64,000 nucleotides of DNA from positions 125,178,001 to 125,242,000 of the forward strand of contig CM059430.1 in the NCBI GenBank assembly GCA_030390025.1. Reading direction: 5' to 3'. The stretch's first letter is position 1; every line of letters begins with the position of its first letter. This DNA comes from Squalus acanthias (Eukaryota). Shown here in pieces: positions 9,486 to 61,900 of the stretch. The notes below the pieces were generated by a model, which worked only from the letters and a program-made list of their open reading frames with translations, was not told the DNA's origin and searched no databases. Both the position numbers and the translations under genes were made by a program.

Positions 9486-12300
9486 TCATGTCCAAATTCC
9501 TGCCTGCTCCCCGTCACCCTTAATTCCCTTTACTTCTAGGAAACTGTCTATTTCTGTTTTAAATTTATGTAATGATGTAGCTTCTACAGCTTTTTGGGGC
9601 AGCATATTCCATGGACCTACCACCCTCTGAGTGAAGTAGTTTCTCCTCATCTCAGTTTTGAAAGAGCAGCCCCTTATTCTAAGACTATGCCCCCTAGTTC
9701 TAGTTTCACTCATCATCAGGAACATCCTCCCCGCATCCACCCGATCCAACCCCTTCACAATCTTATATGTTTCAATAAGATCGCCTCTCATTCTTCTGAA
9801 CTCCAATGAGTAGAGTCCCAATCTACCCAACCTCTCCTCATATGTCCATCCCCTCATCCCTGGGATTAACCGAGTGAACCTTCTTTGTACTGACTCGAGA
9901 GCAAGTATGTCTTTTCTTAAGTACGGACACCAAAACTGTATGCAGTATTCCAGGTGCGGTCTCACCAATACCTTGTACAACTGAAGCAATACCTCCCTAT
10001 TTTTATATTCTATCCCCCTAGCAATGAAAGCCAACATTCCATTGGCCTTCTTAATCACTTGCTGCACCTGCATACTAACCTTTTGAGTTTCGTGCACCAG
10101 GACCCCCAGATCCCTTTGTACTTCAGTACTTTCCAGTTTCTTGCCATTAAGATAATAACTTGCTCTACTATTTTTCCTGCCAAAGTGCATAACCTCACAC
10201 TTTCCAGTATTGTATTCCATCTGCCAAATCTCTGCCCACTTACTTAGCCTGTCTATGTCCCCTTGCAGATTTTTTATGTCCTCCTCACTCACTACTTTCC
10301 CTCCCATCTTAGTATCATCTGCAAACTTTGATATGTTACACTCGGTCCCCTCCTCCAAATCATTAATATAGATTGTAAAGAGTTGGGGACCCAGCACTGA
10401 CCCCTGCGGAACACCACTAGTTACTGATTGCCAGTCTGAGAATGAACCATTTATCCCAACTCTCTGCCTTCTGTTCGATAGCCAATCCTCTATCCATGCC
10501 AGAATATTACCCCCAATCCCATGATTTTTTATCTTAAGCAATAATCTTTTCTGTGGCACCTTGTCAAATGCCTTTTGGAAGTCTAAATACACCACATCTA
10601 CTGGTTCCCCTTTATCCACCCTGTATGTTACTTCCTCAAAGAACTCCAGCAAATTTGTCAAACATGACTTCCCCTTCATAAAACCATGCTGACTTTGTCC
10701 TATTAAATTATGATTATCCAAATGTCCCGTTATTGTCTCCTTAATAATGGACTCCAAAATTTTACCTACCACAGATGTTAGGCTAACCGGTCTATAGTTT
10801 CCAGCCTTCTGTCTACTGCCCTTTTTAAATAAGGGTGTTACATAAGCAGTTTTCCAGTCTGCCGGGATCTTTGCTGAGTCCAGGGAGTTTTGGAAAATTG
10901 TTACCAATGCATCCACAATCCCTACCGCCACTTCTCTCAAGACCCTAGGATGTAAGCCATCAGGTCCAGGTGATTTATACGCCTTGAGTCCCATTATTTT
11001 ACCGAGTACCACTTCCTTAGTGATTTTGATCGTGTTTAGCTCCTCCCCCCCTTTAGCCCCCGGTTTGTCCAGTGTTGGGATATTCTTAGTGTCCTCTACT
11101 GTAAAGACTGATACAAAATATTCAGTGTATTTGCCATCTCCATATTTCCCACCATTAATTTCCCAGTCTCATCCTCTAAGGGACCAACATTTACTTTAGC
11201 CACCCTTTTTCTTTTTATATAACTATAAAAACTCTTACTATCTGTTTTTATATTTTTTGCTAATTTACTTTCATAATCTATCTTCCCTTTCTTAATCAAT
11301 GTTTTTGTTATTTTTTGCTGTCTTTTAAAGTTTTCCCAATCCTCTATCCTCCCACTAGATTTGGCTACCTTATAAGCCCTTGTTTTTAGTCGAATACTAT
11401 CCTTAATTTCTTTACTTAGCCACGGATGACTGTCTTTTCTTTTACACCCTTTTCTTCTCAGTGGAATATATATTTTTTTGGAAGTTGTAAAATAACTCCT
11501 TAAATGTACACCACTGATAATGTATCATCTTACCCTTTAATCTATTTTCCCAATCCACTCTACTCAATTCCGCTCGCATACCTTCATAGTCTCCTTTATT
11601 CAAGCTTAGCACGCTTGTTTGAGATCCAACCTTCTCACCCTCTAATTGAATATGGAATTCAACCATGTTATGGTCACTCATTCCAAGGGGATCCTTTACT
11701 CGGACATTTTTAATTAATCCGGTCTCGTTACACAGGACCAGATCTAAGGTTGCTTGCCCCCTGGTCGGTTCAGTTACATACTGCTCAAGAAACCCATCCC
11801 TAATACACTCAATGAACTCATCCTCAAGGCAGCCCTGCCCAATTTGATTTGTCCAATTAATATGATAGTTAAAATCCCCCATAATTAAAGATGTTCCCTT
11901 ATTACAAGCCTCAACTATTTCCTGATTGATACTCCGTCCAACAGAGTTGCAACTGTTCGGAGGCCTATAGACTACGCCCACTAGTGTTTTTTCCCCTTAT
12001 TATTCCTTATCTCCACCCAAACTGTTTCATTATCCTGATCTTTTGACCCAATATCATTTCTCTGTATTACAGTGATTCCTTCCTTTATTAACATAGCCAC
12101 CCCACCTCCCCTTCCTTCCTGCCTGTCCTTCCTGATCGTTAAATAACCTGGTATGTTTAATTCCCAAGCATTGTCACCCTGCAGCCATGTTTCTGTAATG
12201 GCCACAAGATCATACCCATATGTAGTTATTTGTGCCATTAACTCGTCTATTTTGTTACGAATGGCTACGTGCATTCAGATAGAAAACTTTCAAATATGTT
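9486..12300 (-). pseudogene. CR1 ORF2p (APE endonuclease and reverse transcriptase), several frameshifts; RT part open for 508 aa
   Basis: APE motifs ITETWL, GVVYRPP, MGDFN and SDHN are present. RT motifs [35 protein letters not shown] and KFADD lie in ORF 9486-11012. Confidence 0.92.
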
Positions 12301-24979: not shown

Positions 24980-27900
24980 TGTGGAGGACGAATTTCACTT
25001 CAACAAATACCACTAATGGTGTGGAGGACGAATTCTTGGAATGCATGCGAGATGGTTTCCTGGATCAGTATGTGGAGGAACCAACCAGGGAACAGGCTAT
25101 TCTGGATCTGGTACTGTGTAATGAGAAAGTGCTAATCAATAATCTTGTGGTAAAGGGGCCTTTAGGGACAAGTGACCATAATATGATTTCATTTTACATT
25201 GGGCCAGAAATTCGGCTCCCTGGCTTCCCACGGGTGCAAGGATCGTGCGCGCACCTACCTACCGCGCCTGCCGTTGACCCCTGGGCCCGCGGGGGATTCC
25301 GGTCCTGGGCCTCCTCCAACTGCCGGCGCGCAGTGCTTGCGTATCCCAGGGGCGTAGTTAGTGCGATGCGTCCCCTGGGATCACGTGGGCCATGGAGAGC
25401 CAATGGCAGCAGACCATCTTTCATTCATAGATTTGACCTGTCAAATCTATGAATACAGATCGGCCCCAAAACATCCCTAAAACTACAAATACATTTTTTT
25501 TTAAAAACATCACATTTTTAAAATAACTATAAATTACATTAATTAACTATTTCAACCAAAAAATTAAATTTTTGAAAAAATTAATTACACTTTTTAACAC
25601 GGCTAAAACTAAACTTACCTTTCTTTAAAGTAATTAAAAAAGATAAATCTGTGAAAAAAATGTTTAATAAAATCAACACTTACCTTGTTAAAAGAAGGCC
25701 TTGTGCCTCCTTTTTCAATGTGCATCTTCTCCGTGCTTACCCTCACGGAGGAACGTGTAAAAAAAAACGAAGTGCGAGGCGAACGCGCTGGCACTCCGGC
25801 ATGCGCGTTCGACCTCTGAACCCCTTCCTTCAGGGGAACGGAAGTGCCAGTTTTCCGCACATGCGCAGTGTATGCAAGAAACCGGCACTCTCGTTCCGTC
25901 CACGGGTGAGTACATAGTGCGTACTCACCCGTGGTGAGCCTAATTTCTGCCCCAATAAGTTTGAGAGTGATGTAGTCCAATCTGAAAATACGGTCTTCAA
26001 TCTAAACAGAGGAAACTACAAGGATATGAGGGACAAGTTGGCCCTGGTAGATTGGGAGACTACACTAAAAGGTATGAAGGTGGGCATACAATGGCTAACA
26101 TTCAAGGAAATAATGCATAATTTGCAACAAACATATATTCCTCTAGGGCATAAAAACCCAAAAGGAAAAGTGATCCAACCATGGCTAACGAAAGAAATTA
26201 AAGCTAGTATTAAGTCAAAGGAGGAAGCTTATAAAGTTGCCAGAAAAAGCGGTCAGCCTGAGGATTGGGATCTTTTTAGAAATCAGCAAAGGGGGACCAA
26301 GAAATTGATAAAGAAAGGGAAAATGGAATAGGAGCACAAACTAGCGAAAAATATAAAAACGGATTGTAAAAGCTTCTATAGGTACGTGAAAAGGAAAAGA
26401 CTGGCGAAGGTAAATGTAGGTCCTTTACAGTCAGAGACAGGAGAATTTATAAATGGGAAATGAGGAAATGGCAGAGAAATTAAATAAATACTTTGTTTCT
26501 GTCTTCACGGAGGAAGACACAAAAAACCTCCCAGAAATACGAGAAAAGCAAGGGTGTGGCGAGAATGAGGAACTTAAAGAAATTATTAGTAAAAAAAAGT
26601 ACTAGCAAAATTAATGGCATTAAAAGTCGATAAATCACAAGGACTGGATGACCTACACCCTAGGGTTTTGAAAGAGGTGGCCATTGGGATAGTGGACGCA
26701 TTGGTTGTCATCTTCCAGAATCTATAGAATTTTGGAACGGTTCCTGCAGATTGGAGGATAGCAAATGTAATCCCACTATTTAAGAAAGGAGGGAGAGAGA
26801 AAACGGGGAACTACAGACCTGTTAGCCTCACATCAGTAGTTGTGAAAATGCTGGAATCTATTAAAGGATGCAATAACTGGGCACTTAGAAACTAATAGTA
26901 AGATTGAGCAGAGTCAACATGGATTTATGAAAGGGAAATCCTGTTTGACAAACCTATTGGAGTTCTTTGAGGATGTAACTAGTGGAGTAGACAAAGGGGA
27001 ACCGGTAGATGTGGTGTATTTGGATTTTCAGAAGGCCTTCGATAAGGTCCCACACAAGAGGTTGGTGAACAAAATTAGGGCACATGGAATTGGGGTTAAT
27101 ATAGTAGCATGGATTGAGAATTGGTTAACAGACAGAAAACAAAGAGTGGGGATAAACGGGTCTTTTTCAGGATGGCAGGCTGTGACTAGTGGGGTACCGC
27201 AAGGATCGGTGCTTGGGCCCCAGCTATTCACAATCTATATCAATGATTTGGATGAGGGGACTAAATGTAACATTTCCAAATTTGCTGATGATACAAAGCT
27301 AGGTTGCAGTGTCAGTTGTGAAGAGGCTTCAAGGGGCTCAGTGAGTGGGCAAGAACATGGCAGATGGAATATAATGTGGATAAATGTGAAGTTATCCACT
27401 TTGGTAGAAAAAACAGAAAGGCAGAGTATTTCCTCAATGGCGAAAGATTGGGGAATGCAGATGCTCAAAGGGTCCTGAGTGTCCTTATACATGAGTCACT
27501 GAAAGTGAATGTGCAGGTGCAGCAAGCCATTAGGAAGGCAAATGGTATGCTGGCCTTCATTACAAGAGGATTTGAGCACAGGAGTAAAGAAGTCTTACTC
27601 CAATTATATAGGGCCTTGGTGAGACCACACCTGGAGTAGTGTACAATTTTGGTCTCCTTACCTAAGGAAGGATATACTTGCCATAGAGGGAGTGCAACGA
27701 AGGTTCACGAGATTGATTCCTGGGATGGCGGGACTGTCGTATGAGAAGAGATTGAGTAAACTAGGCCTGTATTCTCTTGAATTCAGAAGAATGAGAGGGG
27801 ATCTCATTGAAGCATACAAAATTATTATAGGGCTTGATAGGGTGGATGCTGCCCTTGGCTGGAGAGTATGGAACCAGGGGCCACATCCTCAGGATAAAGG

Positions 27901-28175
27901 GTAGGCCATCCAGGACTGAGATGAGAAGAAATTTCTTCACACAGAGGGTGGTGAATCTTTGGAATTCTCTACCCTCGAGGGCTGTGGAGGCTCAGTCATT
28001 GGGTATATTGAAAACAGAAGTCGATAGATTTCTGACTAGTAAGGGCATCAAGGGATATGGCGATAGGGCCGGTAAATGGAGTTGAGGCAGAAAATCAGCC
28101 ATGATCTCATTGAATGGCGGAGCAGGCTCGAAGGGCCGAATGGCCTACTCCTGCTCCTATTTCTTATGTTCTTAT
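24977..28175 (+). mobile_element. 5'-truncated CR1 LINE (APE C-terminus and RT, with stops and frameshifts), containing a MITE
   Basis: EFLECMRDGFLDQYVEEPTREQAILDLVLCN...[21 protein letters not shown] and KFADD, then the 3'UTR and TTCTTATG tail ending at 28175. Confidence 0.9.
25201..25953. mobile_element. Non-autonomous DNA transposon (PIF/Harbinger-like, 753 bp)
   Basis: TIRs are GGGCCAGAAATTCGGCTC and GAGCCTAATTTCTGCCCC (16/18), with 3-bp flanks ATT and AAT. Removing it restores the CR1 frame (FY-I-KFES). Confidence 0.8.
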
Positions 28176-28525
28176 GGGAGATGGGACATTTGTTTGGAAG
28201 AACAGAGGGGTCAAGGGTAGTTATTTTTGAGGTGGGGGGTGATGGCGGTGGTTTGAAAAGAGAGGGACTGTGCCCGAGAAGGGAACCATTTACAATGTCA
28301 GCATGGGGCCAGGTATGAAGGTTGGGTGGTCAGTAGTTTTTTGATTCAGATTTCCAGATTCTGCAATGAATTGCTTTTTGTTCAAACCCCCTGATGGGAA
28401 AACTGCAAAAGCCATAAACATAAGTAGAAACAATGGATTGCCAAATTGATCATCATTAATTATTTTATCACATGAATGCACTTTGCAGCTCTGGAAACTT
28501 GTTAAACAATGTCATAAAAATGTCA

Positions 28526-28935
28526 TGATGCGGAGATGCCGGTGTTGGACTGGGGTGGACAAAATTGAGAGATTTTCCCAGTAAAAAAGTAAATTTTTTT
28601 TTTTTAAAGCTTTTCGTTTTACATACAGACGGCAGCTTTTGACACGTTAGAACCCCTGCGACTTCACCTCATTGTCTCAGTTGTATCTTGCTATGTCTTT
28701 TGATGTGGTACCTTCCTGGCTGACTTAATTAACTTTATCACACCTCGGCAGATAGTCAGGATGATTTAATTTATTGGTCTGCAATTGTAAAGTACACATG
28801 CTTTTTTTTCCATCTATATATGCTCTGACGATTCTGTATCCAATTTACTTCACCTGAGGAAGGAGCGATAGTTCCGAAAGCTTGTGATTTCAAATAAAAC
28901 TGTTGGACTATAACCTGGTGTTGTGCGACCTCTCA
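28526..28935 (+). mobile_element. Penelope-like element-derived short insertion (410 bp)
   Basis: 12-bp TSD ATAAAAATGTCA (28514-28525 and 28936-28947). It has a PLE terminal-repeat end CTGAGGAAGGAGC...CCGAAAGCTTGTG...AATAAAACTGTTGGACTATAACCTGGTGTTGTG and an inverted 46-bp tail at its left end. Confidence 0.8.
28850..28887 (+). ncRNA. Minimal type-I hammerhead ribozyme motif
   Basis: Stem I UCAC/GUGA, core CUGAGGA, stem II GGAGC-GAUA-GUUCC, GAAA, and palindromic AGCU stem III followed by U17 (CUU triplet). Confidence 0.7.
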
Positions 28936-30839
28936 ATAAAAATGTCAGACAATGCTATTTCAAATTGAAACTTACAAAACAGGCAGTTTAGTGTATTTCT
29001 CACCTTCACCCATACACAAAAACACAAAAGTCAGAAAAGACATCTTAAAATTGCTTTTCTGTTGTGCCAAGAGCCATTCTCAAAACATGTACCTGACGCA
29101 GCTGGCTACAACGAGATAGTAAACTTTCCAGGATTCACCAAGACCACCGGTTGGGAAGACCAGGTAGAAACGGGTCTTCCTTGTTACCGCCCTGAGCGAA
29201 TGTGGCAAGTTTACTTAATGAGATGCAGCTGGCTGCTTGAAGCATGCATCCGGAGCTTAAACCACTAGCACTGATTTTAGCGCAACATAAAAGCAGCGTT
29301 AAAAATGTTACAATACTACCAAGCTACAAATTCCAAGGAAATACATGGAATATATAGAGATTCTTATGATTTTAAGCAGGACGAAGCCTCAAGTCTGTCA
29401 CAGAACACTTCACGACTGCTGCTGGCCCAGTCCCAGAAAAAACAGAAAGCAAAATACTACTTTAAGTTACAGTCGCAGCCAAAACACGACAGACTTATAT
29501 GAAGTTCGATCGTAGCCACAGATCTGTCAGATATCTGTATATTCTCTAATGACAAAATGTCAATATAACCTAATTCACCATTAGTGTCAGCGAACTCCTG
29601 GGGTTCACGCGCATTAGAAAAAATATTGTCGTGTTTCCAAAGTGGGAGGAGCAGTATCATATGAGCATGCAGATCCTGCTCCCAAAAACTTCAATGGGTC
29701 CTAAACATCCCGAGAGAAATATATTAGAGCGGGGCCAATGGAATCACCGGGCTTATTTGGTGTAGTAGTAGAATTTTTAAAAAATCATAGCCATTTGCTA
29801 CTTGTGTGACACTCTTCATTCATCATCTGAAACTGCTCCAACTACGAGTGACAGTGCAGTAACCTTCAATACTGCACCCTAGTGCCATATAGCTTAAAAT
29901 GCTCTCTTGAAACACAAACTAAGTTTAGAAGGAGGAAACTGATAATTGTACCGCTGGGTGTTCCTCACAGTTCAAGTCAATACAGTATGAAAATTTCACA
30001 CACAAACCATTGCATTTTACTGAAATCCCAGTGACAGTACTGCAGCTGTAAATCAGCTTCCAGCAAAGATGACCCACGTGCCTCGGGTACTTCCCTCTCT
30101 CATCCAATATATATGAAGAGTTAACATGGAACTGATCCACAAAGTAATTTGTCATTTCTTTTAACCCTCTCCCTCCCCGCCACATGGTAGAGCCTCCCTC
30201 TATAGTCGCCAAAAAGAAGCACCACATTGTTAAGGAATGCACTCTCCCGTCTTCAATTCATTCAGGAGTACATAAAACTGTACTGAGCATAAAAACAGCA
30301 CAAAAGAATCTCACCACAATTGACCCTAACACAGAATTATTACTGTCCTGGGTAAAGTATAGAAACAGACGTTTCCTACATTGGACATGGCCCAACAATC
30401 TGTCCCTGGTAACATACATCATGATGGTCTCTTTCTGCAGTAACCATACAATAATCACAGTAATTGGCTTCCTTTTTCTAAGTATCTAATCAGTCCACAC
30501 ACTCGTAAATGCATGCTTGAGCCAAGTCCTTTTGTTTCCTCTGGCATGTATGTTGGGGGGCGGGGAGCAGTACAGAGACCATCCTTCAGGCAACATTGCA
30601 ACTTAAGTTGCTCGTGTCCTCCAGGATTGCAAAACAAATCACTTCAGGACCCTGTCAAAACCTGGTAATTCCCAAGAATCTTGTGTTATTTTATTTAGGA
30701 ACTCCTGGATAAAACAACATCCATCCTGGCAGGAGCTCACTCAATTCTTCCCTTGTGTGAAAGGGGCAACTTCTTCCTACAAATCTTATAAGTCCCCCCC
30801 CCCCCGCCCACCATATGGCTCAGTGTATAAATGCACCAT

Positions 30840-54479: not shown

Positions 54480-54598
54480 TTTGTGTTCTGGGAATGCCAG
54501 GCGACAGGGTCCAAACTCTTGGCTAATGGCAGCGCGCTCCTGCACAGTGCGAATATAACTCCCCAGTAATATTTCCACAGCAAGTCCCATTTAGCCAT
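54480..54598 (-). CDS. efnb1: Ephrin-B (most likely ephrin-B1), first coding exon: signal peptide and start of the receptor-binding domain
   Basis: Manual translation gives MAKWDLLWKYYWGVIFALCRSALPLAKSLDPVAWHSQNT(K). This resembles human EFNB1 '[23 protein letters not shown]'. The ATG has good Kozak context (AGAATGG). The exon ends in phase 2 (AA|GTAAGT donor at 54479-54474), as expected for ephrin-B exon 1. B1 rather than B2 rests on the PLAKxLxPVxW signature. Confidence 0.88.
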
Positions 54599-60129: not shown

Positions 60130-60495
60130 TACTTGTTCCTTGGATACGGGCAACGCTGGCAAGGGTTCATTTATTGCTGTTTCCTAGTTGCCCTGAGAAG
60201 GTGGTGGTGAGCCCCTTTTCTAGCAATTGTTTGTATAACTGAGCGGGATTGCTAAACCACTTCAGAGTACATTAAGAGTCAAGCACATAATGTGGGTCAG
60301 ACTGGCTAGGGGTGCCAGCTTCCCTTCCTTGAAGGACATAAGAAGCAGTTGGGCAGCTTTTTCAGACATGGTCAATTTTATTTTCTGGTGACAGCCTACA
60401 CATGACCAGTGTTATTAATTTAATTTCATAATTTACAGTGGAATTTGAATTCCTGACCTATGGGTCATTCGCCCAGTACTATAACCACTACAGTA
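60130..60495 (-). mobile_element. tRNA-derived SINE (probably MetaSINE-like) sharing its 3' tail with the LINE at 8540
   Basis: The tail GCTGGCAAGG..CATTTATTGC..TCCTAGTTGCCCT matches 8565-8606. The central CTTCCCTTCCTTGAAGGACAT resembles the Meta domain as I recall it. Confidence 0.5.
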
Positions 60496-61900
60496 CTGTA
60501 AGCCTTACATCAGTTGTGGGCAAAATGCTGGAGTCCATCATTAAGGATGAAATAGCGGAGCACTTAGCAAATGGGGACAGGATAGGACAGAGTCAACATG
60601 GATTTACAAAGGGTAAATCGTGCTTGAGTAATCTATTGGAATTTTTTGAGGGAGTAACTGGTAAAATAGATGGGGGAGAGCCAGTAGATGTGGTGTACCT
60701 GGACTTCCAAAAGGCCTTCGATAAGGTCCCACATAAAAGATTAGCAGGGAAAATTGAAGCTCATGGGATAAAGGGGAAAGTATTGACGTGGATAGAGAAC
60801 TGGCTGTCAGATAGAAAACAGAGAGTTGGAATAAACGGCTCATTTTCTGAATGGCAGGCAGTAACAAGTGGGGTACCGCAGGGATCTGTCCTGGGTCCCC
60901 AGCTGTTCACAATTTACATTAATGACCTGGATCAGGGAGTCGGATGCAGCATTTCCAAATTTGCAGACGACACTAAACTAGGAGGGGGGGTGGGCTCAGA
61001 GGAGGAGACCAGGAAGCTCCAGAGCGATTTGGACAGACTGGGTGATTGGGCGGATAAATGGCAGATGCACTATAATGTGGACAAGTGCGAAGTTATCCAC
61101 CTTGGGTGCAGGAACGGGAGGGCAAATTATTATTTAAATGGCAATAAATTGGGAGAGGGGGAAGTACAGAGAGACCTGGGTGTTCTTGTACACCAGTCAC
61201 TGAAGGCGAGCATGCAGGTGCAACAGGCGGTCAAGAAGGCAAATGGTATGCTGGCCTTCATAGCAAAAGGGTTGGAATACAGGAACAGGGATACCTTGCT
61301 GCAGCTGTACAGGGCACTGGTGAGACCACACCTCGAGTACTGTGTACAGTTTTGGTCGCCTCATCTGAGGAAAGATGTTCTTGCCATGGAGGGGGTGCAG
61401 CGGCGATTCACCAGGCTGATACCAGGAATGGCGGGATTGACCTATGAGGAGAGACTATGTAGTTTAGGGATGTACACACTGGAGTTTAGAAGATTGAGAG
61501 GGGACCTCATAGAAGTGTATAAAATTCTGACAGGTCTAGACAGACTAGATGCAGAAGGAATGTTTCCCTTGGCGGGTGAGAACAGAACTAGAGGACATAA
61601 TTTAAGGATAAGGGCTAAACCATTTAGGACAGAAATGAGGGGGAATTTCTTCACTCAGAGGGTGGTGAACCTGTGGAACTCATTGCCACAGAGGGCAGTG
61701 TACGCCAGCTCATTAAATATATTTAAGAGGGAATTAGATATATTTCTACAGGCAAAAGGGGTTAAGGGTTACGGAGAGAAGGCGGGGACGGGATACTGAA
61801 TTGGAGGATCAGCCATGATCTCATTAAATGGCGGAGCAGGCTCGAAGGGCCGGATGGCCTACTCCTGCTCCTATCTTCTATGTATCTATGTATCTATGTA
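60496..61900 (+). mobile_element. Young 5'-truncated CR1 LINE with an uninterrupted RT reading frame
   Basis: The frame from VSLTSVVGK to the natural stop at 61799 has no lesions and carries [17 protein letters not shown] and KFADD. The 3'UTR hairpin and (TATCTATG)3 tail follow. Confidence 0.92.

What the first reader, a model, noticed from the sequence alone, without database searches (positions are those of the whole stretch)
28514..28947. Intronic 410-bp non-coding Penelope-derived element with an intact minimal hammerhead ribozyme, inverted tail and 12-bp TSD
Seen: the TSD ATAAAAATGTCA is perfect on both sides and there is no ORF. The hammerhead core at 28850-28887 (UCAC-CUGAGGA-A-GGAGC/GUUCC-GAAA-GCUU-GUGA) is followed by AATAAA. 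The left 46 bp (28526-28571) reverse-complements to CTCTCAATTTTGTCCACCCCAGTCCAACACC..., which overlaps the right end (CTCTCAAT) and would close a TGTTGGACT/AGTCCAACA hairpin. Known: Penelope-like element terminal repeats carry minimal hammerheads whose palindromic stem III favours dimeric cleavage. Inference: this may be a recently mobile, retrozyme/SINE-like non-autonomous family. The ribozyme is antisense to the ephrin pre-mRNA, so it would not cut the host transcript.
Basis: partly seen in the sequence, partly recalled or inferred. Interest (0 to 1): 0.7.

Follow-up and report, generated by a model that had tools for sequence, protein, structure and literature searches.

The report
Young truncated Penelope retrotransposon insertion
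This 410-base piece in an intron of an ephrin-B gene is an ordinary, shortened copy of the end of a very common protein-coding jumping gene, missing at this spot in three other samples and so likely very recent; its small ribozyme motif is a known feature of such elements and likely cannot cut on its own.

Summary
There is a perfect 12-bp TSD, no ORF, a minimal hammerhead, AATAAA and a 46-bp inverted tail, all antisense in intron 1 of an ephrin-B1-like gene. The retrozyme/SINE reading fails. The 364-bp body is the 3' end of an autonomous Neptune-type Penelope-like element (RT plus GIY-YIG; 20,084 exact 3' ends in the genome). The tail/body junction occurs once, and 30 of 30 sampled copies sharing the 5' boundary motif run on upstream, 29 of them to the ORF. 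The layout is the family's usual head-to-head pair, here with an unusually short tailed arm. Contigs from three other samples carry the empty site, so the insertion is likely young and polymorphic. Family-level patterns: 62 of 62 inverted pairs join one tailed and one tail-less arm; TSDs are mostly 12-13 bp; 30 of 206 5' ends sit 3 nt before the hammerhead, 32 nt after a TATA box (likely the transcription start); 191 of 206 arms span the predicted cut, so templates were mostly uncut. The scan has noted such elements, and most of these patterns, on other shark-like DNA before.

The parts
28514..28525 (+). Left target-site duplication (12 bp); its last 4 nt also match the continuation of the family's tail
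   Evidence: one copy only in the empty allele
28526..28571 (-). Inverted short arm: last 6 nt of the pLTR plus the 40-nt tail, which in the parent element ends at the ORF's ATG
   Evidence: 100% identical to the tails of other copies
28572..28935 (+). Forward arm: 364 bp of 3' UTR/pLTR, starting about 60 nt after the parent ORF's stop codon; joined to the inverted arm with no microhomology
   Evidence: 100% identical over 364 nt to L261, which runs on into the ORF end
28815..28821 (+). TATA-like box (TATATAT), 32 nt before the family's main 5' end (promoter role inferred)
   Evidence: sequence; kept at this spacing in other subfamilies
28845..28851 (+). Initiator-like TTACTTC; the A at 28847 corresponds to the pile-up of family 5' ends (likely transcription start)
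   Evidence: 30 of 206 arms end at -87..-89 from the 3' end; Inr consensus recalled
28850..28887 (+). Minimal type I hammerhead motif, predicted cut after 28883; helix III possible only between two copies
   Evidence: 1,866 exact copies of this 37-mer
28893..28898 (+). AATAAA, family-wide
28936..28947 (+). Right target-site duplication (12 bp); its first 2 nt match the start of the tail
54480..54598 (-). Coding part of exon 1 of the host ephrin-B1-like gene; the element lies in the following intron of about 103 kb

Best explanation
The 410 bp is a 5'-truncated, two-armed copy of the end of an abundant protein-coding Penelope-like retrotransposon, likely inserted very recently and likely made when the element's enzyme copied its RNA from both strands of a 12-nt staggered cut. 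Shown: the parent has the layout hammerhead - AATAAA - tail - ATG - one long ORF (RT, Cys linker, GIY-YIG) - 3' UTR - hammerhead - tail. Copies are variably truncated. Inverted pairs join one tailed and one tail-less arm inside a TSD of mostly 12-13 bp. Inferred: the GIY-YIG domain nicks both strands 12 nt apart. One nick primes reverse transcription at the start of the tail (site 1) and here made 364 nt. The other primes at the end of the tail (site 2) and here made only 46 nt. The two cDNAs were end-joined and the gaps filled, which gave the TSD. The template had not been cut at the hammerhead, since both sides of the cut are present. The copy has no ORF and no tail downstream of the ribozyme, so it is likely dead on arrival. 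Its lone hammerhead would need a second copy or the element's protein to fold helix III.
For: Parent ORF: L031 holds 855 stop-free codons (5'-truncated) with RVT_1 (E 1.3e-8) and GIY-YIG (E 1.2e-4, over cut-off), followed by this body and the tail. Of 10 loci picked from the window's own hammerhead subfamily, mostly for long span, 4 have open frames of 367-724 aa with bodies 98.6-99.7% identical to the window's. A copy at C1:2.363 Mb shows hammerhead-tail-ATG-ORF (one frameshift)-pLTR-tail. Counts: 20,084 exact 3' ends, 9,462 of them with the tail, and 1 with the window's junction. In 123 stretches of contig C1, 206 of 207 arms were placed, with 5' ends from -35 to beyond -1,500; only 2 fall in -340..-380 and 47 reach into the ORF. 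62 of 62 head-to-head pairs are tailed + tail-less; a TSD was found in 60, and 43 of these are 12-13 bp. Same architecture as the window (tail-only arm plus forward body): 12 of 35 examined loci out of 58 pattern hits; the other 11 have 5' ends at -22 to -286. Empty site: one X1 contig joins 28513 to 28936; an X5 contig and an X7 contig carry both flanks with one TSD copy. Two adjacent internal RT start sites, nicking of both strands, a predicted dimer, and uncut RNA as the main substrate were shown in vitro for the anole element PAc (PMC11167929, main text read).
Against: Twin priming is inferred from finished insertions and was not observed. PAc is a Poseidon-clade element whose tail lies inside the ORF, so the transfer to this family is by analogy. 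The window's arms are very unequal (46 vs 364 nt), while arm lengths in the 62 pairs are correlated (Spearman 0.64; 0.55 for the 31 pairs with an arm over 100 nt), and none of the 82 unpaired arms in the C1 sample had a tail-only partner. About two thirds of the sampled stretches (52 new ones plus many earlier ones) were found with a tail-bearing pattern, so tail-less + tail-less pairs were under-sampled, though tailed + tailed pairs were not. That organism A of the read runs is the species of G000 is inferred from flanks with 2 differences in 826 bases. Only contigs were available, and table 8 was cut.
Confidence: 0.88

Rival explanations
1. A fixed 410-bp non-autonomous retrozyme- or SINE-like family that moves as a unit.
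For: Clean ends and a perfect TSD. Three other solo copies (L005, L006, L008) start within 1-2 nt of the same point. A preprint reports a mean retrozyme consensus of 363 bp in one chondrichthyan (10.64898/2026.07.22.740005, main text read, tables not seen), close to this body's 364 bp.
Against: The junction is unique. No head-to-tail junction exists. 30 of 30 sampled copies of the 1,506 with the boundary motif continue upstream, and the first 100 listed all carry the family's next base. The three look-alikes came from a search that skips common words and scored only 37 candidates, which likely enriched the rare junction word; the position-ordered sample shows no peak there.
Confidence: 0.02
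2. The inverted arm arises from one priming event followed by fold-back, a template switch or repair, not from priming on both target strands.
For: Arm lengths are correlated, and some pairs have near-perfect palindromic centres. Self-priming on an antisense template was proposed for rotifer Penelopes (PMC3846280, passages read).
Against: Fold-back of one cDNA would mirror the same outer end. Instead 62 of 62 pairs have two different outer ends, at the two fixed sites, each abutting one TSD copy. In the window copy the arms share only 6 nt of family sequence and join bluntly.
Confidence: 0.2
3. The pile-up of 5' ends just before the hammerhead marks a place where RT stalls on folded or protein-bound RNA, not the transcript's 5' end.
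For: 5' ends are also frequent across the hammerhead itself (-53..-86), which suggests pausing in the structure. No raw RNA reads were available.
Against: There is a sharp wall: 30 arms in 3 nt against 28 in the next 41 nt (binomial p 4e-20). A TATA box lies 32 nt upstream and an initiator-like motif sits at the wall. The one copy seen with hammerhead-tail-ATG-ORF starts at about -92 to -99. A TATA plus Inr in the pLTR is described for rotifer Penelopes (PMC3846280), and a start site in the pLTR for Penelope (PMC8557442).
Confidence: 0.3
4. This copy is active in the host locus: its retained TATA/initiator fires a short antisense RNA that self-cleaves or affects ephrin-B1 expression.
For: The copy keeps TATA, initiator, hammerhead and AATAAA unmutated.
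Against: It is one of thousands of near-identical ends, and it is absent from three other samples. It is the only descriptor hit in 64 kb, so there is no partner in cis. Two copies folded together prefer another pairing (-24.8 kcal/mol) to the form with the intermolecular AGCU helix and both stems II (-17.7, stem I left out). Minimal PLE hammerheads showed no cleavage as monomers and low cleavage as dimers (PMC4209133).
Confidence: 0.05

Closest known systems
Endonuclease-bearing Penelope-like elements, Neptune clade (PMC8557442, passages read; PMC3846280, passages read)
   Same: Single ORF with RT and C-terminal GIY-YIG; CX2-5CxxC linker; heavy 5' truncation; inverted 5'-truncated copy; 30-40 bp tail at one end; hammerhead in the pLTR; TSDs; TATA and initiator-like motifs in the pLTR.
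   Different: In this copy the inverted arm is reduced to the tail plus 6 nt, an uncommon outcome (12 of 35 loci examined among 58 pattern hits, against 9,462 tailed ends). TSDs here are mostly 12-13 bp, against the 8-10 bp cited for rotifer copies. Clade not placed on a tree.
PAc, Poseidon element of the green anole (PMC11167929, main text read)
   Same: Two adjacent internal start sites that bound the tail; AT-rich target; uncut RNA as the main template.
   Different: In PAc the hammerhead overlaps the start codon and the start sites lie 111-118 nt into the ORF. Here the hammerhead lies wholly upstream, about 90 nt before the ATG, and the tail ends at the ATG.
Minimal type I hammerheads of metazoan PLE pLTRs (PMC4209133, results and discussion read)
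   Same: [quoted passage not shown]
   Different: Helix II is 5 bp in this subfamily, against 7-8 bp in the Schistosoma examples; cleavage untested.
Metazoan non-LTR retrozymes (PMC7229834, passages read; 10.64898/2026.07.22.740005, main text read)
   Same: Non-coding, a few hundred bp, type I hammerhead, related to PLE pLTRs.
   Different: Not tandem, no fixed monomer, a head-to-head layout with a TSD, and continuous with an ORF in sister copies.

Membership tests
EN+ Penelope-like element | Single ORF with RT and C-terminal GIY-YIG endonuclease (in the parent family) | tested here: met
EN+ Penelope-like element | pLTR repeated on both sides of the ORF (partial tandem) | tested here: met
   copy at C1:2.363 Mb
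EN+ Penelope-like element | Inverted 5'-truncated copy, with a 30-40 bp tail at one end only | tested here: met
   62 of 62 pairs; window copy
EN+ Penelope-like element | Target-site duplication, with a single copy in the empty site | tested here: met
EN+ Penelope-like element | RT falls in the PLE clade of a phylogeny | not tested
   no named PLE references were fetched; PDB search gave no hit
Neptune clade | CX2-5CxxC motif between RT and EN (PMC8557442) | tested here: met
   C-X4-C-X2-C upstream of the GIY-YIG motif in the translation
Neptune clade | Distinction from Nematis, which shares the motif, by phylogeny | not tested
   by elimination only: the 2026 preprint found Neptune and Poseidon in its vertebrate sample
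Minimal PLE hammerhead | Core boxes, extra nt 9/10.1, G10.1-C11.1 pair, palindromic 15.2-16.2, helix I of 4-5 bp | tested here: met
   96 of 96 cells paired in 12 variants
Minimal PLE hammerhead | Covariation in the helices | tested here: inconclusive
   no two-sided change in the 8 pairs counted; the fifth pair of stem II reads C-G, U-A or U-G among subfamilies
Minimal PLE hammerhead | Self-cleavage as a dimer or with protein help | not testable with these tools
   191 of 206 arms span the cut, 5 end within -50..-53
Rfam hammerhead families | Match to a covariance model | tested here: not met
   0 matches at E<=1
Non-LTR retrozyme | Tandem repeats with a hammerhead in each unit | tested here: not met
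   single motif in the window; 0 head-to-tail junctions of this unit
Non-LTR retrozyme | Linear and circular monomer RNAs | not testable with these tools
   only contigs were available
SINE-like non-autonomous family | Many dispersed copies with the same two ends | tested here: not met

The most novel reading that the evidence does not exclude
The family is a currently active vertebrate Neptune element whose thousands of insertions record its whole cycle. The RNA starts 3 nt before the hammerhead, behind a TATA box carried in the previous copy's 3' UTR. One dimeric RNP cuts a 12-nt stagger and always primes one strand at the start of the tail and the other at the start codon. The hammerhead, conserved across subfamilies, is mostly uncut when copied and would serve as a 5'-terminal folding or protein-binding element rather than as a processing enzyme. 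This polymorphic copy, with its empty allele, is a clean before-and-after record of one such event.
Probability: 0.45. Interest if true: 0.45.

Novelty: new member of a known kind. Interest (0 to 1): 0.2.

Why it matters
As a locus it matters little: it is one of about twenty thousand ends of a known class of element. The useful part is the family. How Penelope-like elements make their inverted ends and one-sided tail, and what their hammerhead does, is still open; among the papers read here, only one element (PAc) was reconstituted as a full protein. A young, apparently still polymorphic Neptune-type family with strict rules (one tailed plus one tail-less arm, 12-nt stagger, fixed 5' end) gives exact predictions for an in vitro test, and presence/absence markers for population work.

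Tried and rejected
(1) A C/T difference 6 nt from the 3' end seemed tied to tailed arms in the first hit list. Whole-genome counts show an ascertainment effect: T in 30 of 20,084 ends, 16 of them with the tail. (2) A truncation hot spot at the window's 5' boundary: rejected. (3) A peak of 5' ends at the hammerhead cut: 1 of 206 exactly at -51 and 5 within -50..-53, so at most a slight excess. (4) A preferred stop for tail-only arms at -6: 58 hits against 24 at a control position; 18 of the 35 examined are point mutants whose arm continues; left undecided. (5) The all-against-all length estimate was confounded by palindromic pairs and was replaced by a sense-only panel. Some -83 calls there come from subfamilies missing from the panel, so I used only -87..-89. 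(6) One search used a misplaced structure string; one search is the valid count. (7) Folding z-scores of the hammerhead (-1.24) and of the tail hairpin (-0.45) are not significant. (8) RNA: no RNA holder is on record. Depth in the two runs guessed to be RNA rises after 28848, but contig depth cannot rank parts of a stretch, so I did not use it. X14 laid nothing; X3 and X6 fit the empty site but do not show it directly. (9) A short ephrin motif recalled from memory found no exon; exon 1 was then read from translations. (10) Orientation bias in introns was not tested: no annotation is held. (11) Paper searches listed no study of this family or of twin priming in PLEs. The library is partial, and the supplements of PMC11167929 and of the 2026 preprint were not read and may bear on this.

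Full report
Observation. The sequence is as described. The 12-mer ATAAAAATGTCA stands at 28514 and 28936 only. Between the two copies lie 410 bp with no frame longer than 53 codons. A minimal type I hammerhead occupies 28850-28887, with the predicted cut after 28883. My descriptor finds it once in the window and never in 100 simulated windows; Rfam does not detect it. AATAAA follows at 28893. The host is an ephrin-B gene on the minus strand. Exon 1 lies at about 54480-54598, and the ephrin-domain exon lies 49 kb left of the window, best matching ephrin-B1. The element is thus in intron 1, with its hammerhead antisense.

What it is. A search of the own genome returned near-full-length matches to positions 45-410 of the element, often followed directly by the reverse complement of its first 46 bp. 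One such locus, L031, has an 855-codon open frame upstream with an RT domain, a C-X4-C-X2-C linker and a GIY-YIG domain. The window's body begins about 60 nt after that frame's stop. A copy on C1 shows the whole order: hammerhead, AATAAA, tail, ATG, ORF (one frameshift), 3' UTR, hammerhead, tail. The tail is therefore the last 40 nt before the start codon. The family is large: 20,084 exact 22-nt 3' ends, 9,462 of them with the tail. The window's hammerhead 37-mer, with its G-U pair in stem II, has 1,866 exact copies, so that pair marks a subfamily and is not decay. Locus L261 is 100% identical to the window's 364-bp body and runs on into the ORF end. Among 10 subfamily loci chosen mostly for long span, 4 have open frames of 367-724 aa.

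Test of the fixed-unit idea. The tail/body junction occurs once in 3.7 Gb. A head-to-tail junction of the unit occurs 0 times. Of 1,506 places with the window's 5' boundary motif, the first 30 along C1 all continue upstream (38 to over 1,500 nt), and 29 reach the ORF end. In 123 stretches of C1, taken in positional order from the lists, 206 of 207 arms could be placed. Their 5' ends run from -35 to beyond -1,500, with only 2 between -340 and -380. Among 35 of the 58 places where a tail leaves the consensus at the window's point, 12 (the window included) are tail-only arms joined to a forward body, and the other 11 bodies start at -22 to -286. Of the rest, 18 are point mutants, 4 are lone tails and 1 is ambiguous.

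Age. Contigs of public runs carry the empty site. In X1 one 2,228-nt contig covers 28153-28513 and 28936-29400 without a break. In X5 a 1,697-nt contig matches the right flank and 28447-28525, and the two matches overlap by exactly the 12-nt TSD. In X7 a 272-nt contig covers 28306-28525, and its depth continues to about 28999. These are three samples from three studies, all labelled organism A, with flanks 99.8% identical in X1. No contig with a filled junction was listed, but the tables were cut. The simplest reading is a polymorphic, very recent insertion; a sister species with near-identical flanks is not excluded.

How it likely works. In the C1 sample 124 of 207 arms form 62 head-to-head pairs, and all 62 join one tailed and one tail-less arm. 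TSDs were found for 60 pairs, 43 of them 12-13 bp. The sample partly favoured tailed arms, but that cannot explain the absence of tailed + tailed pairs. For the anole element PAc, purified protein nicks and extends both strands, starts at two adjacent internal sites that bound the tail, is predicted to be a dimer, and uses mainly uncut RNA (PMC11167929, parts 1-2 of 4 read). By analogy I infer that a 12-nt staggered cut was primed on one strand at the tail's start (364 nt made) and on the other at the tail's end (46 nt made). The two cDNAs were then joined bluntly: the subfamily's flanking bases match neither side of the junction. The 2-nt and 4-nt overlaps between the TSD and the family sequence at the two outer ends fit primer-template pairing. 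Arm lengths are correlated across pairs (rho 0.64), so this copy's lopsided arms are an outlier. 30 of 206 5' ends fall at -87..-89 and few beyond (p 4e-20). This is window 28846-28848, an initiator-like motif 32 nt after TATATAT, so it is likely the transcript's 5' end, with the hammerhead as the first thing transcribed; RT stalling is the rival. 191 of 206 arms, and the window copy itself, span the predicted cut, so templates were mostly uncut. The motif is nonetheless kept paired across subfamilies (96 of 96 cells, one-sided changes only; the fifth stem II pair varies between C-G, U-A and U-G). With no loop in helix III it can be active only as a dimer or with help (PMC4209133, parts 1-2 of 4 read: monomers inactive, dimers weak), and this copy has no partner in the window.

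Comparison and verdict. Inverted truncated copies, a one-sided 30-40 bp tail, pLTR hammerheads and the Cys linker of Neptune and Nematis are described (PMC8557442, 12 of 22 passages seen; PMC3846280, 12 of 13 passages seen). Non-LTR retrozymes are tandem by definition (PMC7229834, 12 of 30 passages seen; 10.64898/2026.07.22.740005, parts 1-3 of 5 read), which this is not. It is filed as a copy of a Neptune-type PLE, with the clade not tree-tested: a new member of a known kind. My five paper searches listed no study of this family's strict arm pairing or fixed 5' end, but the library is partial. A sequence look-up of earlier scan notes found nothing. A word look-up found 189 notes on at least 16 other genomes, several with the same patterns; these are unchecked notes, seen after my own analysis. 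Interest 0.2.

Noticed in passing
G000:C1 sample; window 28846-28848: Sharp pile-up of family 5' ends 3 nt before hammerhead stem I, 32 nt after a TATA-like box; this yields many ~90- and ~130-nt mini-copies and ~220-nt palindromic pairs, a better candidate for a fixed-size class than the 410-bp copy.
   Followed up: partly
L306 (C1:139.625 Mb), L224 (C1:30.70 Mb), L230, L232: Inverted pairs whose two arms end at exactly the same family position (-1478/-1478, -696/-696, -89/-89); arm lengths are correlated overall.
   Followed up: partly
L031 (C1659:372000-381500): Two family copies sit inside a long simple-repeat array and share 2.7 kb at 90% identity, which suggests amplification together with the satellite.
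   Followed up: no
C1 sample: The same TSDs recur at different loci (three pairs share one 12-mer, two pairs another), apparently because the element inserts at the same spots of other abundant repeats; this may reflect a target preference.
   Followed up: no
L051, L107, L158, L176: Subfamilies with CCGACGA in place of CUGANGA in the hammerhead core (U4 to C) and different stem II loops.
   Followed up: no
window 9486-11168 (-), 26846-27904 (+), 60432-61799 (+): Long RT-like reading frames (560, 210 and 455 aa) of another LINE family, 71-73% alike to each other; a fragment of the same family appears to end at 28176, about 340 bp left of the element. The CR1/L2-like label is recalled, not tested.
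   Followed up: no
window 28575-28593: The body starts inside the second copy of a ~20-nt direct repeat in the family's 3' UTR; some older copies have only one copy of it.
   Followed up: partly
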